Assembly (NCBI GenBank): GCA_965278945.1
Contig: OZ257128.1
Location: 1,608,403 to 1,672,402 of the forward strand
Direction: 5' to 3'
Source: Actinomycetes bacterium
GTDB lineage: Bacteria > Actinomycetota > Actinomycetes > S36-B12
Length of the DNA stretch: 64,000 nt
Shown one piece after another: positions 3,819 to 47,984 of the stretch. How positions within the stretch are numbered: the first letter of the stretch is position 1; the number at the start of each line of letters is the position of its first letter. The notes beneath the pieces are model-generated. The model saw nothing but the letters and a program-made list of their open reading frames with translations. It was not told the origin of the DNA and did no database searches. The position numbers and the translations under genes are program-made.

Positions 3819-3856
3819 GTCCAGATGCTCCCACCCCGCCCCGCCCCCTCCCCCCT

Positions 3857-3916
3857 CGAGTGGGCAGTTGTGGTCGTCAGATTCGCCCTCAGAGCAGCCA
3901 CAAGTGCCCACTCGCG
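3857..3916. repeat. REP-like palindrome copy A (60 bp)
   Basis: CGAGTGGGCAGTTGTGG (3857-3873) / CCACAAGTGCCCACTCG (3898-3914); arms 43/44 identical to copy D. Confidence 0.9.
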
Positions 3917-10515: not shown

Positions 10516-10545
10516 CGCGAGTGGTCAGTTGTGGTCGTGGAAATC
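10516..10545. repeat. REP-like palindrome copy B, left arm
   Basis: CGCGAGTGGTCAGTTGTGGTCGTGGAAATC; complementary to 11830-11858 except one extra G. Confidence 0.85.
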
Positions 10546-10552
10546 TCGGCAG

Positions 10553-11820
10553 GTTCAATCGGTGAGTGCAACGCCTGAGTGGTGGAGGCGTTGTGGCTGG
10601 TTCGGATCGGTATTACTCGTGGGAGCGGCGTAGGCCGTTCTTCGACGCGATTGCCCATGGTGCGTCGTTTCTGGAGGCGGTCGCGGTGGTGGGCGCGGCG
10701 GGGTCGGCGTGCCAGAAGTGGTGGCGGCAGTCTTCGGGCATGCAATTGACGTTGGGGGTGCGCGGGGGCTTGAGGATTGTTCCTGGCGGGGATGGGTTTG
10801 TCGGGGACAAGTTGACGGCGCTGGAGCGCGATCAGATCGGCACGGGTCTGGCGGCGGGCTTGTCGCAGGCGGCGATCGCGCGTGTGATCGGGCGTAGCGC
10901 GTCGACGGTGTCGCGGGAGGTCCGCCGTAATGCCGGGCCGGATGGGACGTATTACGGGTCGCTGGCGCACGTGAAGGCGTTCCAGCGGGCTCGCCGGCCC
11001 AAGGGTTTCAAGCTGGATGGGCGCGCGGATCTGATCGCGGCCATCACCGGCTGGCTCGATGATGGGTGGAGTCCGCGGCTGATCGCCCTCGTGCTGGCCG
11101 AGCAGGGCGGCGGGGACAAGACTGCACGGGTGTCGCACGAGACGATCTACCAGTCCCTTTACGTGCAGGCGCGCGGGCATCTGCGCGCGGACCTGCATCG
11201 GGCCTTGTCCACGGGCCGTGCCCGGCGCCGATCACGGACCGCGACCCGACGTGGTCCCAGTCCGTTCTCCGATGCCCTGACGATCTCCCAGCGACCCTCC
11301 GAGGTCGATGACCGCGCCGTGCCAGGTCATTGGGAGGGCGACTTGATCCTGGGCACCGGATGCGCCTCGGCGATCGGGACCCTGGTCGAGCGGTCGACCA
11401 GGTTCACGATCCTGCTGCACCTGCCGATCGATCACACCGCGGAGGAAGTCGCCAAGGCGATGATCACAGCGATGGGCGACCTGCCCGAGCACCTGCGCCG
11501 CTCGATCACCTGGGACCGCGGAAGCGAGCTGGCCCGCTGGCGCGACATCCAGATCGCCCTGGACACGCAGTTGTTCTTCTGCGACCCGCACTCACCCTGG
11601 CAGCGTGGCAGCAACGAGAACACCAACCGGCTGCTACGGCACTGGTTCACCAAGGGCACCGACCTGTCCGTCCACGACGTCACCGAGCTACGCCGCGTGC
11701 AGGACAAACTCAACTCCAGACCACGCCCTACCCTTGGACTGAAGACCCCCGCCCAAGCACTCGCGGAATACCTCGAGCAGCAGGCGGCCTAGACAACCGC
11801 GTTGCACTCACCGATTGACA
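10553..11820 (+). mobile_element. IS30-family insertion sequence
   Basis: Perfect 20-bp inverted repeats TCAATCGGTGAGTGCAACGC (10555-10574, 11799-11818) around an IS30 transposase; ends uncertain by 1-2 bp; no clear target duplication. Confidence 0.92.
10566..11792 (+). CDS. IS30-family DDE transposase
   Basis: HTH (LSQAAIARVIGRSASTVSREVRRN), VSHETIYQ, HWEGDLI, TWDRGSE, PWQRGSNENTN. Confidence 0.95.
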   Translation: MQRLSGGGVVAGSDRYYSWERRRPFFDAIAHGASFLEAVAVVGAAGSACQKWWRQSSGMQLTLGVRGGLRIVPGGDGFVGDKLTALERDQIGTGLAAGLSQAAIARVIGRSASTVSREVRRNAGPDGTYYGSLAHVKAFQRARRPKGFKLDGRADLIAAITGWLDDGWSPRLIALVLAEQGGGDKTARVSHETIYQSLYVQARGHLRADLHRALSTGRARRRSRTATRRGPSPFSDALTISQRPSEVDDRAVPGHWEGDLILGTGCASAIGTLVERSTRFTILLHLPIDHTAEEVAKAMITAMGDLPEHLRRSITWDRGSELARWRDIQIALDTQLFFCDPHSPWQRGSNENTNRLLRHWFTKGTDLSVHDVTELRRVQDKLNSRPRPTLGLKTPAQALAEYLEQQAA

Positions 11821-11829
11821 TCGCCCTCC

Positions 11830-11858
11830 GATTTCACGACCACAACTGACCACTCGCG
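11830..11858. repeat. REP-like palindrome copy B, right arm
   Basis: GATTTCACGACCACAACTGACCACTCGCG. Confidence 0.85.
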
Positions 11859-11859
11859 G

Positions 11860-12804
11860 TTAAGAACGAGCAGCGAGGCGGGCCTTCAGGGCGTCGCGCT
11901 TCTCCTCGAATCGGCCGGCTGCAGTGTCCATGTCTGACATGAGCAGCGCGAGCTCCTCACGGGCCTGCTCGCCGACGGGTCCGAAATCCTCGCGCTCGAA
12001 GATGCGCCACTTGCGCAGGATCGGCATGACGACCTCCTCGCGATGCTGGCGGATGTCGTAGATGCCGGCCACCGCGATCTCGACGGACTTGCGAGCGAAG
12101 CCCTCGATGCCGTAGCCCGGCATAGCGAAGTCGCGCACGGACGCGAGGATCGCGGTCATCGTTTCGTCGGGAGCGATCTCAAGAGCGACCTCGATGACGT
12201 TCCGGTAGAAGAGCATGTGCAGGTTCTCGTCGAGCGCGATCCGCGCGAACAACTGCTCGGCGACCGGGTCGCCGGTGGCCGCACCGGTGTTGCGGTGCGA
12301 CACCCGAGTGGCCAGCTCCTGGAACGCGACGTAGGACAAGCCCGGCAGCACGCCGGGATGGATGGCCTTGAAGCCCTCCTCCATGTGGGTCATGCGCGCC
12401 CGCTCCATGGCGATTGGGTCGATCGAGCGCGTGACGAGCAGGTAGTCACGGATGGCGGTGGCGTGACGGCCCTCCTCCGCGGTCCAGCGGCCGACCCACG
12501 TTCCCCAGGCCCCGTCGCGACCGAGGATCGTGGCAATCTCGTAGTGGTAGCTCGGCAGGTTGTCCTCGGTAAGGAGGTTGACGATCAGGCTCGTGCGCGC
12601 CGCGTCGCTGAAGCGCTGCTCGTCGGCTGTCCACTCGCGGCCGCCGAGCGGGCCGGAGAAGTCCTCGCCCTCGCTCCACGGCACGTACTCGTGGGGGAAC
12701 CACTCCTTGGCCGTGCTCAGGTGGCGGTTGAGCTCCCGCTCGACCACTGGTTCGAGGTCCACGAGGAGCCGCTGATCCGAAACACTGTCCGCGAGTGCCG
12801 TCAT
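11860..12804 (-). CDS. desA1: Acyl-ACP desaturase
   Basis: WFPHEYVPW, NLLTEDNLPSYH, WTAEEGRH, FQELAT.VSH, DENLH diiron motifs. Confidence 0.92.
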   Translation of the reverse strand: MTALADSVSDQRLLVDLEPVVERELNRHLSTAKEWFPHEYVPWSEGEDFSGPLGGREWTADEQRFSDAARTSLIVNLLTEDNLPSYHYEIATILGRDGAWGTWVGRWTAEEGRHATAIRDYLLVTRSIDPIAMERARMTHMEEGFKAIHPGVLPGLSYVAFQELATRVSHRNTGAATGDPVAEQLFARIALDENLHMLFYRNVIEVALEIAPDETMTAILASVRDFAMPGYGIEGFARKSVEIAVAGIYDIRQHREEVVMPILRKWRIFEREDFGPVGEQAREELALLMSDMDTAAGRFEEKRDALKARLAARS

Positions 12805-12869
12805 GGGCACAGCCTCCCACATTGGGGATGCGTATCTCCTGCCATGAGGCGGTGCGGGAGGATGCCCTC

Positions 12870-46846: not shown

Positions 46847-46906
46847 CGCGAGTGGGCACTTGTGGCTACCAGAACGTGCCAGTTCGCGACCACAACTGCC
46901 CTCTCG
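46847..46906. repeat. REP-like palindrome copy C (inverted relative to A and D)
   Basis: 21-nt arm identical to A/D; 23-nt arm 20/23 identical to A; 16-nt unique centre. Confidence 0.9.
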
Positions 46907-46927: not shown

Positions 46928-47800
46928 TCAGCCGCGGACAAGCGCCGAGTTCACGAGCGCGACCATTCGTTCCGGGTCCTTCAGATCCTGTGCGGTGAAG
47001 ACGATCACCTTCCACCCCGCGTCCTGCAGCAAGTTGCGTCGCAGCGCATCCTTGCGCCGCTGAACTTCGGGCAGGTGGACTATCCCGTCGTACTCCGCGA
47101 TAACCCGTTCGCGACGCCACACCATGTCTGGACGAGCTAGCCATTCACCGCCGACGATGAGGTCGATATTGCACTCGGGCTTCGGTACGCCCCGCTGCAC
47201 GAGGACGCACCGCGCACATGACTCTCCGGGCGACTCCGAGCCCGGGTCGAGGAGAGGCAGTGCCTGGCGCGCGGACCTCACGCCACGTCGACCGTGCGCC
47301 CAGCGAATCACTGCGTTGACTTCGGCGACCGTCGCAAGGTTTCTGCGCAGCAGGTTGTCACCTATCGCCACCAGATGTTCGATCGGCACCAGCTCGGCGC
47401 AGTCCACCCAGGTACGAGAGGGACGTGTGATCGTTCGACCCCGATCCTCGACGAGATGCTGCACTGGTAGTTCCAACCGACGACCGCGGACTCCAGTCCT
47501 GCGCTGTCGCGAGGCTCCGCGAGCGACGGCGACGCTGATTGGTCGCTTCGCAAGTTCAAGCCCGATCCGCGGAGGTAGTGGCAGTCCCCAGTGCTGTGCA
47601 GCAGAGAGGTCGCTGAGGACTGACACGTCCGCCTTTGTGATGAGGGCAGCTTGGGTAAGTGCCTCGACTGGTTCGGCCGCGTCGTCGCGGACCCGGACGC
47701 CTCGCGACGGAGCGACGTACGGAAGTCGTCTTGCCTGAGCGCGAGTGAGCCCTTCAGCCCCGGTCGCAGCGACGAGGAAGGCACGGCTCTCGGACGTCAT
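46928..47800 (-). CDS. AbiEi-like N-terminal region + DUF559 (PD-(D/E)xK, Vsr-like) endonuclease domain
   Basis: LSDLSAAQHWGL, TRPSRTWVD, SESPGES, RPDMVW..ERVIAEYDGIVH, D..RRN.LQDAGWKVIVFT..DL. Confidence 0.85.
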   Translation of the reverse strand: MTSESRAFLVAATGAEGLTRAQARRLPYVAPSRGVRVRDDAAEPVEALTQAALITKADVSVLSDLSAAQHWGLPLPPRIGLELAKRPISVAVARGASRQRRTGVRGRRLELPVQHLVEDRGRTITRPSRTWVDCAELVPIEHLVAIGDNLLRRNLATVAEVNAVIRWAHGRRGVRSARQALPLLDPGSESPGESCARCVLVQRGVPKPECNIDLIVGGEWLARPDMVWRRERVIAEYDGIVHLPEVQRRKDALRRNLLQDAGWKVIVFTAQDLKDPERMVALVNSALVRG

Positions 47801-47902: not shown

Positions 47903-47962
47903 CGAGTGGGCACTTGTGGTCGTCAAAACATCGCGTCGCGTAGCCACAAGTGCCCACTCGCG
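47903..47962. repeat. REP-like palindrome copy D
   Basis: Perfect 19-bp stem CGCGAGTGGGCACTTGTGG (47901-47919) / CCACAAGTGCCCACTCGCG (47944-47962). Confidence 0.92.
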
Positions 47963-47984
47963 TGGGGGTGGCGGGGGTGGCGGG

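What the first reader, a model, noticed from the sequence alone, without database searches (positions are those of the whole stretch)
3857..3916. Dispersed 60-bp repeat family with fixed arms and a unique, fixed-length 16-nt centre
Copies A (3857-3916), D (47903-47962) and C (reverse complement of 46847-46906) align without gaps. They share a 23-nt arm CGAGTGGGCA(G/C)TTGTGGTCGTCA (C differs from A at 3 positions) and an invariant 21-nt arm AGCCACAAGTGCCCACTCGCG. The 16-nt centres are unrelated: GATTCGCCCTCAGAGC, AAACATCGCGTCGCGT, ACTGGCACGTTCTGGT. Arms 43/44 identical between A and D with a wholly different centre of the same length is not expected from neutral duplication. It suggests selection on arms and spacing (protein binding or cleavage geometry), or capture or exchange of centre sequence. 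Copy A is a solo copy about 43 kb from the nuclease gene, as a non-autonomous REPIN-like element would be.
Basis: partly seen in the sequence, partly recalled or inferred. Interest (0 to 1): 0.75.

Follow-up and report, generated by a model that had tools for sequence, protein, structure and literature searches.

The report
58-bp palindromes paired with DUF559 nuclease genes
The "repeat with a unique centre" is a 58-letter DNA palindrome from a REP-like family scattered between genes; its conserved arms match the palindromes that frame a small nuclease gene, its centre is only the fixed-length tip of the hairpin, and this nuclease-plus-palindrome pairing appears undescribed in the papers I could search.

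Summary
The two "arms" are reverse complements, so each copy is a 58-bp palindrome.

- **Copy number.** The 3.55-Mb genome holds 27 intact copies (26 of exactly 58 bp). Twelve more are split exactly at their centre by IS30-family insertion sequences.
- **Conservation.** Positions 1-21 and 38-58 are conserved and covary.
- **The window's copies.** The centre is often partly self-complementary, far more so than in A, C and D, which are the least self-complementary, chimeric members.
- **Other families.** Three further palindrome families exist (57/58, 58 and 66-72 bp). Each family also brackets its own AbiEi-like/DUF559 nuclease gene.
- **Across the genus.** Each genome's abundant palindromes carry the arm "code" of its resident nuclease cassette.
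- **Orthologous sites.** Sites stay occupied, but the palindrome there is often replaced by another family member of equal length. Empty sites also exist.
- **The nuclease.** Its best fold match is I-Bth0305I, a homodimeric homing endonuclease that footprints about 60 bp.

Best reading: arms are the protein recognition site and the centre is a fixed-length spacer or cleavage zone. No evidence supports sequence capture. The biochemistry is inferred, not shown.

The parts
3857..3914 (.). Copy A: solo 58-bp palindrome of family F1 (CGAGTGGGCAGTTGTGG...CCACAAGTGCCCACTCG). It lies between the divergent DUF4126 (-) and glyoxalase-like (+) genes. Its centre is not self-complementary, so it is a chimeric copy.
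   Evidence: An orthologous site in G020 holds a different F1 member, and G009 holds a relic half.
10518..10547 (.). Left half of an F1 palindrome (CGAGTGGTCAGTTGTGG..) split by an IS. The last 3 nt, CTC, are the target-site duplication.
10548..11825 (+). IS30-family insertion sequence (1278 bp, ends GGCAGG...ATCGCC) inserted at the exact centre of the palindrome. The transposase ORF is 10566-11792.
   Evidence: NCBIfam transpos_IS30 scores 265 bits against a cut-off of 80. Four identical copies exist, all inside F1 palindromes with 3-bp duplications.
11826..11856 (.). Right half of the split F1 palindrome. The first 3 nt, CTC, are the target-site duplication. 30 + 31 - 3 = 58 bp.
46849..46906 (.). 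Copy C: F1 palindrome between the stop of the DUF3071 gene (+, ends 46835) and the stop of the DUF559 gene. It is degenerate: one arm mismatch and an asymmetric centre.
46928..47800 (-). AbiEi-like / DUF559 (Vsr-fold) nuclease gene p1, 290 aa, bracketed by C and D. The motif E236..D238..H242..D251 is conserved in 48 homologues.
   Evidence: Pfam PF04480 scores 27.4 bits against a cut-off of 20.6. Homologues carry PF04480 and PF09407. Alignment. AF2 model pLDDT 93. Best PDB fold match is 3r3p, I-Bth0305I.
47903..47960 (.). Copy D: F1 palindrome between the DUF559 gene start and the stop of the thymidine kinase gene (-, ends 47985).
   Evidence: The whole 1149-bp cassette C-gene-D is absent at this site in six same-genus genomes and replaced by a solo palindrome in G020.

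Best explanation
A, C and D belong to a family (F1) of 58-bp palindromic, REP-like intergenic repeats. These are the cognate DNA sites of a family of AbiEi-like/DUF559 (Vsr-fold, EDxHD-type) nuclease genes.

Each such gene sits between two palindromes of its own type. The same type is scattered as solo copies through the genome.

- **Arms.** The outer 21 bp on each side carry a conserved scaffold, YGAGYGG-NNNN-NTGT. A few variable "code" positions differ between nuclease lineages.
- **Centre.** The central 16 bp is a spacer, or the tip of the hairpin. Only its length, and in many copies partial self-pairing, is conserved.
- **Proposed geometry (inferred).** A homodimer reads the two arms with its N-terminal domains. 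Its two nuclease domains sit over the sequence-free centre, which fixes the spacing.
- **Renewal.** Copies are renewed by hairpin-sized copying or replacement at already occupied sites, and by exchange of half-palindromes. This produces chimeras such as A, C and D.
- **IS30.** The centre is also the specific insertion point of IS30-family elements.

Shown here: anatomy, copy number, gene association, code matching, turnover and IS30 targeting. Inferred: protein binding and cleavage, and the mechanism of copying.
For: **1. Palindrome, fixed length, covariation**
- There are 27 intact copies, 26 of exactly 58 bp.
- In 62 sequences from several genomes, 84.6% of cells pair against 70.7% in shuffles. 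21 of 26 pairs show changes on both sides, and 0 of 500 shuffles reach this.
- Positions 22-37 carry about 0.1 bit.

**2. Gene association**
- Seven of 8 DUF559-type genes found in the genome are bracketed by palindromes, and 6 of them by one of the four families (one more by short palindromes of another kind). F1 brackets p1-p4, F3 brackets p5, F4 brackets p7 and F2 brackets p8. The gap is about 1 kb in each case.
- In a scan of 51 homologous loci, 39 had at least one flanking palindrome and 20 had both. Each has its own arm code.
- A 37%-identical homologue in an uncultured Actinomyces MAG is bracketed by palindromes with near-identical arms; one of the two matches the 14-nt arm pattern exactly.

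**3. Code matching per genome**
- High copy numbers of an arm code occur only where a cassette with that code is resident. This holds in G000, G020, G018, G007, G012, G022 and G010.
- For the GAGTGG[GC]CAGT code, 4 of 4 genomes with the cassette have 4-18 copies. Of 21 genomes without it, 3 have 1-4 copies (my count).

**4. Turnover**
- The C/D site is empty in six genus members (G009, G018, G001, G008; G003 and G012 have only 25-33 unrelated bp), solo in G020, and holds a cassette in G000. G017 holds a cassette with the gene inverted, 52% identity and another code.
- At 1352799 the flanks and the outer 15 nt of the arms are the same in G020, but the inner 28 nt are unrelated and of the same length. 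The G020 copy there is identical to another G020 copy at an unrelated locus.
- Sites 2515108, 368251 and A are also replaced. The 1765188/1765800 pair is conserved, with 1-3 differences in 58 nt.

**5. The protein**
- The AF2 model has pLDDT 93. The C-terminal domain matches the I-Bth0305I catalytic domain: TM 0.69 on the target, rmsd 3.4 A, probability 1.00.
- I-Bth0305I is a homodimer that footprints about 60 bp (PMC3239194).
- The E/D/H/D motif is invariant or nearly invariant.

**6. IS30**
- All 12 copies of two IS30 types (at least 99.7% identical) lie at palindrome centres. The two flanks add up to 61 = 58 + 3, and TSDs are perfect in 6 copies.

**7. Location**
- All 113 palindromes of the four families are intergenic. 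57% lie between convergent genes, against a 13-16% background.
Against: - No binding or cleavage was tested. [quoted passage not shown]
- Gene and flanking palindromes are physically linked. Shared codes could therefore reflect common descent, with solos as remnants of cassettes, rather than recognition.
- Some genomes hold a few palindromes without a matching cassette (G002, G003, G008). One code in G000 (GGTCAG) has no resident gene.
- Two palindromes of one cassette can carry different codes, each self-complementary (L058, L081). That fits intrastrand pairing or templated symmetrisation better than one protein reading both.
- In I-Bth0305I the highest specificity is at the centre of the site. 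Here the centre is free.
- An earlier check in this scan, on other DNA, found the repeat did not strictly go with the gene.
Confidence: 0.55

Rival explanations
1. The solo palindromes are not mobilised in trans. They are "solo-LTR-like" leftovers. The mobile unit would be the whole cassette (palindrome-gene-palindrome), which inserts at intergenic or palindromic hot spots. Recombination between its two palindromes later deletes the gene and leaves one palindrome. Replacement at orthologous sites would then be repeated insertion plus deletion.
For: - The same intergenic site holds nothing, a solo palindrome, or a cassette in different species, with two unrelated cassette types.
- In C and D the two outer halves resemble each other (CTAC type) and the two inner halves resemble each other (TCG type). 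This is expected if a cassette with its own inner halves entered a resident palindrome.
- G000 keeps an arm remnant TCGAGTGG next to palindrome 368251.
Against: - Solos outnumber genes by about 5-25 to 1 per code.
- G020 has two identical 58-bp copies with unrelated flanks and no gene remnant.
- In p3, L058 and L081, differences segregate by palindrome and are compensated within each one, not by inner versus outer half.
- This rival is not exclusive of the main explanation.
Confidence: 0.2
2. The palindromes are host cis-elements kept for RNA or DNA structure alone, such as bidirectional terminators or mRNA-stabilising hairpins, like many REPs. The nuclease genes merely tend to land next to them.
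For: - There is a strong bias to convergent gene ends: 64 of 113 against a 13-16% background.
- None lies inside a gene.
- Hairpins are very stable, -42 to -60 kcal/mol.
- Pairing is kept by compensatory changes.
Against: - Structure alone does not explain near-invariant arm sequence or genome-specific arm codes that match the resident cassette.
- It does not explain presence/absence between species at otherwise 2-7-bp gene junctions.
- It does not explain exact arms in distant orders.
- There is no T-run after the stem, and flanks are G-rich.
- Copy A sits between two gene starts.
- There is no Rfam family match.
Confidence: 0.15
3. The element is a miniature inverted-repeat transposon (two terminal inverted repeats joined back to back) moved by a transposase, for example the IS30 elements found in it.
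For: - It is a short palindrome with conserved ends.
- IS30 copies are always associated with it.
Against: - The IS30 ends (CTTGGGTTCAAGG.., GGCAGGTTCAATC..) are unrelated to the arms.
- IS copies are at least 99.7% identical while their flanking half-palindromes differ completely. The palindromes are therefore targets, not parts of the IS.
- Flanks are inverted (CCG..CGG, GT..AC), not direct duplications.
- No other IS with such ends was seen.
Confidence: 0.03
4. The centre is captured foreign or genomic sequence, spacer-like as in CRISPR, or like the variable part of integron attC sites.
For: The centre is unique, of fixed length, and lies between conserved repeats.
Against: - Copies are dispersed singly, not in arrays.
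- Arms are inverted, not direct.
- Every centre occurs only once in the genome.
- New copies inherit the centre.
- Many centres pair with themselves.
- A 16-mer is too short for a meaningful search of phage or plasmid collections, so that search was not run.
Confidence: 0.02

Closest known systems
REP / REPIN elements with their RAYT gene (REPtrons) of Proteobacteria
   Same: - Short, GC-rich palindromic repeats in tens of copies.
- Strictly intergenic and enriched at gene ends.
- The presumed partner gene is itself flanked by the repeats.
- There are several families per genome, each with its own partner paralogue.
- The repeats are used as IS targets.
   Different: - No Y1/HUH transposase is present in the genome (PF01797: no match in a six-frame search).
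- The partner is a Vsr-fold DUF559 nuclease with an AbiEi-like N-terminal part.
- Units are single 58-bp palindromes, not 20-35-nt REPs arranged as REPIN doublets.
- A fixed 16-nt sequence-free centre is not a REP feature.
I-Bth0305I (EDxHD family homing endonuclease, PDB 3r3p; PMC3239194)
   Same: - It is the best structural match of the cassette protein's C-terminal domain.
- It is a multidomain homodimer that footprints about 60 bp of pseudo-palindromic DNA, commensurate with a 58-bp palindrome.
- It has a Vsr-like active site.
   Different: - I-Bth0305I is encoded in a group I intron of a phage recA gene.
- Its highest specificity lies in the central 14 bp.
- Here the gene is free-standing between two full palindromes and the centre is the least conserved part.
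- Sequence identity is only about 15%.
REP-targeting insertion sequences (IS1397, ISKpn1, IS621, ISPpu9/10; Tobes and Pareja 2006, PMC1525189)
   Same: Insertion sequences integrate specifically into palindromic repeats. Here all 12 copies of two IS types lie at the palindrome centre.
   Different: That survey lists IS3, IS110, IS4, IS256 and IS5 family elements as REP-targeting. Here the elements are IS30-family, in an actinobacterium, with a 3-bp duplication at the dyad.
Template-switch origin and maintenance of perfect hairpins (Monttinen and Loytynoja 2022, PMC8794818)
   Same: It offers a known route by which a change in one arm is copied to the other in one step. That would keep each palindrome perfect while its free part drifts, as seen for p3, L058 and L081.
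   Different: It is a general mutational mechanism described there for RNA hairpins. It was not tested here and does not explain the conserved arm code or the gene association.

Membership tests
REP/REPIN-RAYT system | Many short intergenic palindromic repeats | tested here: met
   27 intact and 12 IS-split F1 copies. All 113 palindromes of four families are intergenic.
REP/REPIN-RAYT system | RAYT (Y1 HUH transposase, PF01797) present and flanked by the repeats | tested here: not met
   No PF01797 match in the whole genome in six frames, while the controls ring. The flanked gene is DUF559.
REP/REPIN-RAYT system | Replicating unit is a doublet of inverted REPs (REPIN) | tested here: not met
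   Copies are single 58-bp palindromes. Close pairs occur mainly around genes.
MITE | Terminal inverted repeats equal to those of an autonomous IS, plus direct target-site duplication | tested here: not met
   IS30 ends are unrelated to the arms. Flanks are inverted, not direct.
IS30-family insertion sequence (the element at 10548-11825) | IS30 transposase, terminal inverted repeats, 2-3-bp target duplication | tested here: met
   NF033563 scores 265 bits against a cut-off of 80. Pfam HTH_38 and rve are present. The ends are GGCAGGTTCAATCGGTGAGTGCAAC and GGCGATGTCAATCGGTGAGTGCAAC. The duplication is 3 bp in 4 of 4 copies.
EDxHD / Vsr-fold homing endonucleases | Vsr-like catalytic fold with E, D, H, D residues | tested here: met
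   Fold match to 3r3p with TM 0.69 and probability 1.00. E236, D238, H242 and D251 are invariant or nearly invariant in 48 sequences. Pfam DUF559 is above its cut-off.
EDxHD / Vsr-fold homing endonucleases | Gene embedded in a self-splicing intron or intein and copied into a cleaved intron-less allele | tested here: not met
   The gene is free-standing in an intergenic spacer between two full palindromes. Cleavage and homing are not testable with these tools.
Intrinsic terminator | GC-rich hairpin followed by a U-tract | tested here: not met
   Right flanks are G-rich (CGGGGG, CGGTGG) with no T-run.
CRISPR array / integron attC | Direct repeats in an array with spacers, or attC sites next to cassettes and an integrase | tested here: not met
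   Copies are dispersed singly and arms are inverted. There is no array. An integrase was not searched for.

The most novel reading that the evidence does not exclude
A family of homodimeric Vsr-fold (EDxHD-like) nucleases may maintain and spread its own 58-bp palindromic target sites. This would be a non-RAYT "palindrome-homing" system.

- Each paralogue reads a short, evolvable code in the palindrome arms.
- It cuts in the sequence-free centre.
- Repair from other copies overwrites resident palindromes, giving concerted evolution, chimeras and constant length.

This would be a new class of selfish nuclease-plus-repeat element in Actinomycetota. It would also be a natural series of matched DNA-code and protein pairs.
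Probability: 0.3. Interest if true: 0.8.

Novelty: new variant of a known kind. Interest (0 to 1): 0.6.

Why it matters
Dispersed palindromic repeats are common, but their origin is understood only where a RAYT transposase is present. Here four repeat families coexist in a genome with no RAYT. Each is tied to its own DUF559 nuclease paralogue.

Arm codes track the nuclease lineage across a whole genus. The best structural relative of the nuclease is a homing endonuclease with a footprint of about 60 bp.

This makes three things directly testable:
- the function of a very large "unknown function" family (DUF559/AbiEi fusions);
- the origin of REP-like repeats in Actinomycetota;
- a possible modular DNA-recognition code.

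Finally, it shows that these palindromes are traps for IS30 elements, which shapes genome rearrangement.

Tried and rejected
- **Loose half-site scan** ([CT]GAGTGGNNA[GC]NNG with one mismatch). It gave fewer hits (1071) than the reversed-genome control (1506), so it was pure noise and was dropped.
- **Gene calling.** Two GC3-based gene finders miscalled genes around the copies. I replaced them with a codon log-odds caller. Gene contexts therefore rest on approximate calls.
- **Failed scripts.** A fuzzy-regex anchor search timed out and a file-path error cost one call. Both were replaced by blastn.
- **Protein look-ups with no result.** The PDB sequence search with p1 gave no hit. NCBIfam gave no hit for p1. 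Pfam finds no N-terminal domain in p1 itself, and only sub-threshold AbiEi_4 in p5 and p7.
- **Rfam.** The gathering scan of the window found nothing at the copies.
- **Phage and plasmid search of centres.** Not run, because a 16-mer has tens of chance matches in collections of that size.
- **Large concatenated flank query.** I built one but did not submit it. Instead I compared G020 loci already fetched against the local genome.
- **Explanations rejected.** MITE of IS30, CRISPR or attC-like capture, and a plain terminator (see rivals).
- **Simple homing into the centre.** The model \"gene homed into the centre of a palindrome\" predicts half-palindromes at the gene's sides, as for IS30. Full palindromes are seen instead.

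Full report
**1. The observation**

- A and D agree at 43 of 44 arm positions.
- C, read as its reverse complement, differs from A at three arm positions.
- The three 16-nt centres are unrelated.
- The 21-nt arm occurs four times in the window, against 0.01 expected.

Each copy is a 58-bp palindrome with cores at 3857-3914, 46849-46906 and 47903-47960.

**2. Extent of the family**

The window is C1:1608403-1672402 of a single-contig genome of 3.55 Mb and 66.5% G+C.
- The genome holds 27 intact copies of this family, which I call F1. Of these, 26 are exactly 58 bp and one is 57 bp.
- Sub-types differ at a few arm positions: GGGCAG, GGCCAG, GGTGAG and GGTCAG. The TGAG sub-type is flanked GT..AC, and the CGAG sub-type is flanked CCG..CGG.
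- Predicted hairpin energies are -42 to -60 kcal/mol.

Per position:
- Positions 1-21 and their partners are conserved.
- Positions 1, 8, 13, 16, 18, 19 and 21 change on both sides together.

On 62 distinct sequences from this and other genomes:
- 84.6% of cells pair, against 70.7% in shuffles and about 40% in slid controls.
- 21 of 26 pairs show double changes, and 0 of 500 shuffles reach this.

In many copies the centre is itself partly self-complementary, so the stem runs further and in the best copies leaves a 3-4-nt loop. A, C and D have the lowest central self-complementarity of all 26 copies: 1, 2 and 1 of 10 pairs.

Mean pairwise identity is 77% in the arms and 33% in the centre. Every centre occurs once only in the genome.

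**3. Other families**

A sequence-blind scan for long palindromes found three more families.
- F2: CGACCTTGAGGTT.., 52 copies, 57/58 bp.
- F3: CGACCCGAACYGTCGTGAAAC.., 13 copies, 58 bp.
- F4: CCGCCTCCCGGGTCAAATC.., 21 copies, 66-72 bp.

F1 to F3 share the same geometry of 20-21-bp arms and a 16-17-nt free centre.

All 113 palindromes are intergenic by my approximate gene calls. 57% lie between convergent genes, against 13-16% of junctions. 10% lie between divergent genes, against 32% of intergenic spacers of at least 70 bp. Copy A is one of the few between two gene starts.

**4. The partner gene**

The gene between C and D (46928-47800, minus strand) is a DUF559 protein.

The genome has eight DUF559-type genes.

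| Gene | Bracketed by |
|---|---|
| p1-p4 | F1 palindromes of matching sub-type; both p4 palindromes are split by IS30 |
| p5 | F3 |
| p7 | F4 |
| p8 | F2 |
| p6 | short palindromes of another kind |

No RAYT (Y1 transposase) is present.

Results for the protein:
- Homologues carry PF04480 and PF09407 (AbiEi). Sources name them "endonuclease domain-containing protein" or "DUF559".
- E236, D238, H242 and D251 are invariant or nearly invariant.
- The AF2 model has pLDDT 93.
- Its best PDB match is the catalytic domain of I-Bth0305I: TM 0.69 on the target and probability 1.00.
- I-Bth0305I is a Vsr-fold homing endonuclease. It is a homodimer and footprints about 60 bp (PMC3239194; family grouping in PMC3424549).

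**5. Across genomes**

p1-like genes occur in almost every genome of the genus.
- In a scan of 51 homologous loci, 39 had at least one flanking palindrome under a strict criterion, and 20 had both.
- The upstream palindrome lies about 95-215 nt before the aligned start of the gene (mostly 95-185). The downstream one usually lies within about 80 nt of the stop.
- All use the scaffold YGAGYGG-NNNN-NTGT but with lineage-specific codes.

The scaffold pattern is found in 25 of 31 genus genomes, at up to 51 copies, with controls of 0-2.

The abundant code in a genome equals the code of its resident cassette in G000, G020, G018, G007, G012, G022 and G010. For the GAGTGG[GC]CAGT code, all four genomes with such a cassette have 4-18 copies. 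Only 3 of 21 without it have any, at 1-4 copies.

Exact F1 arms also occur in Lacisediminihabitans, Micrococcus lylae and an uncultured Actinomyces MAG. In the last, they bracket a homologue only 37% identical. Lengths there are 54-57 nt between GAGTGG and CCACTC, so length is strongly but not absolutely fixed.

**6. Turnover**

At the junction between the DUF3071 and thymidine kinase genes:
- The two stop codons are 2-7 bp apart in four genomes.
- They are 25-33 bp apart in two genomes.
- G020 (OZ245718.1) has one solo F1 palindrome, in a 125-bp spacer.
- G000 has the 1149-bp cassette.
- G017 has a 1152-bp cassette with the gene inverted, 52% identical, and a GGTGAG code.

At site A, G020 has another F1 sub-type and G009 a relic half.

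I compared G020 palindromes with their G000 sites.
- Two are conserved, with 1-3 differences in 58 nt, against 10-14% in the flanks.
- Sites 2515108, 1352799 and 368251 hold a different family member of the same length.
- At 1352799 the flanks and the outer 15 nt are the same, and the inner 28 nt match at 8 of 28.
- That G020 copy is identical to a G020 copy at an unrelated locus. Hairpin-sized copying therefore happens, and new copies inherit their centre.
- The same follows from a group of G022 copies with near-identical centres.
- G000 keeps an 8-nt arm remnant beside 368251.

A's right half resembles halves seen elsewhere (CTGCTCYGGAGG, flanking the IS at 932486 and common in G018). Its left half resembles 1352799 and the G009 relic. 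A is therefore a chimera of two half-lineages.

**7. IS30**

Two IS30-family types (1261 and 1278 bp inside the flanks, at least 99.7% identical among copies) have 12 copies. All lie inside F1 palindromes.
- The two flanks add up to 61 nt, which is 58 + 3.
- All four type-2 copies and two type-1 copies have perfect 3-bp duplications at the dyad. The window copy duplicates CTC.
- Several type-1 copies have flanks from two different palindromes. This shows recombination between IS copies, and it is one inferred route to chimeric palindromes of unchanged length.
- A third IS30 type sits in F4 palindromes.
- The published survey of REP-targeting IS elements lists five other IS families (PMC1525189).

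**8. Interpretation**

The arms behave as a recognition site and the centre as a spacer. I infer the following model:
- A homodimeric nuclease reads the arms and acts on the centre.
- Repair or copying from other family members renews copies and keeps length constant.
- Palindromy within each copy is kept by selection, or by templated symmetrisation of the kind described in PMC8794818.

None of the biochemistry is shown.

Alternatives are given in the rivals section: solo remnants of mobile cassettes, a structure-only host element, a MITE, and capture.

Earlier notes of this scan describe the same gene-plus-palindrome layout in this and other genomes. They also record a check that did not find strict co-occurrence. 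I treated these as leads and repeated the tests here.

**9. Limits**

- Relatives are different species (70-90% nt identity), so events are old.
- Gene calls are my own.
- Co-occurrence counts are not phylogenetically corrected.
- No RNA or read data could be used.

Noticed in passing
window 12407-12474 (+): Rfam ASdes sRNA match (45.5 bits against a gathering score of 40), antisense to the fatty-acid desaturase-like gene 11860-12822 (-), right next to the IS30-split palindrome.
   Followed up: no
genome C1 (outside the window): e.g. 664431-665548, 548050-549242, 2677701-2678856: Three further palindrome families exist: F2 with 52 copies, F3 with 13 and F4 with 21. Each brackets its own DUF559-type gene. 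F2 is the most abundant repeat family found in the palindrome scan.
   Followed up: partly
genome C1: 828192-829359, 924970-926228, 1534359-1535526, 2042091-2043258, 2424222-2425389, 2533554-2534801: A third IS30-family element (identical 266-aa transposase ORFs) is inserted in or beside F4 palindromes, apparently off-centre. A seventh copy at 795903-796703 was not examined.
   Followed up: partly
L020 (G017:C1:246900-249700): At the same DUF3071/thymidine-kinase junction, another species carries a cassette of almost the same length (1152 against 1149 bp). Its nuclease gene is in the opposite orientation, and it has a different arm code.
   Followed up: partly
genome C1 631567-632016: In the p2 cassette of this genome an extra 149-aa ORF lies between the nuclease gene and its far palindrome. 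The G020 orthologue has the palindrome directly after the gene instead.
   Followed up: no
genome C1 641387-642709: One IS30 copy has two flanks that are exact reverse complements including the 3 nt next to the IS (ACC / GGT). A simple insertion with a direct 3-bp duplication cannot give this. It suggests an IS30-mediated inversion or dimer event.
   Followed up: no
window 3830-3856 and 47961-47984; G020 L019: The palindromes sit in C-rich (left) and G-rich (right) flanks that are themselves weakly complementary. The inserted unit is therefore larger than 58 bp (about 72-125 bp). The flanks may be remnants of older palindromes.
   Followed up: partly
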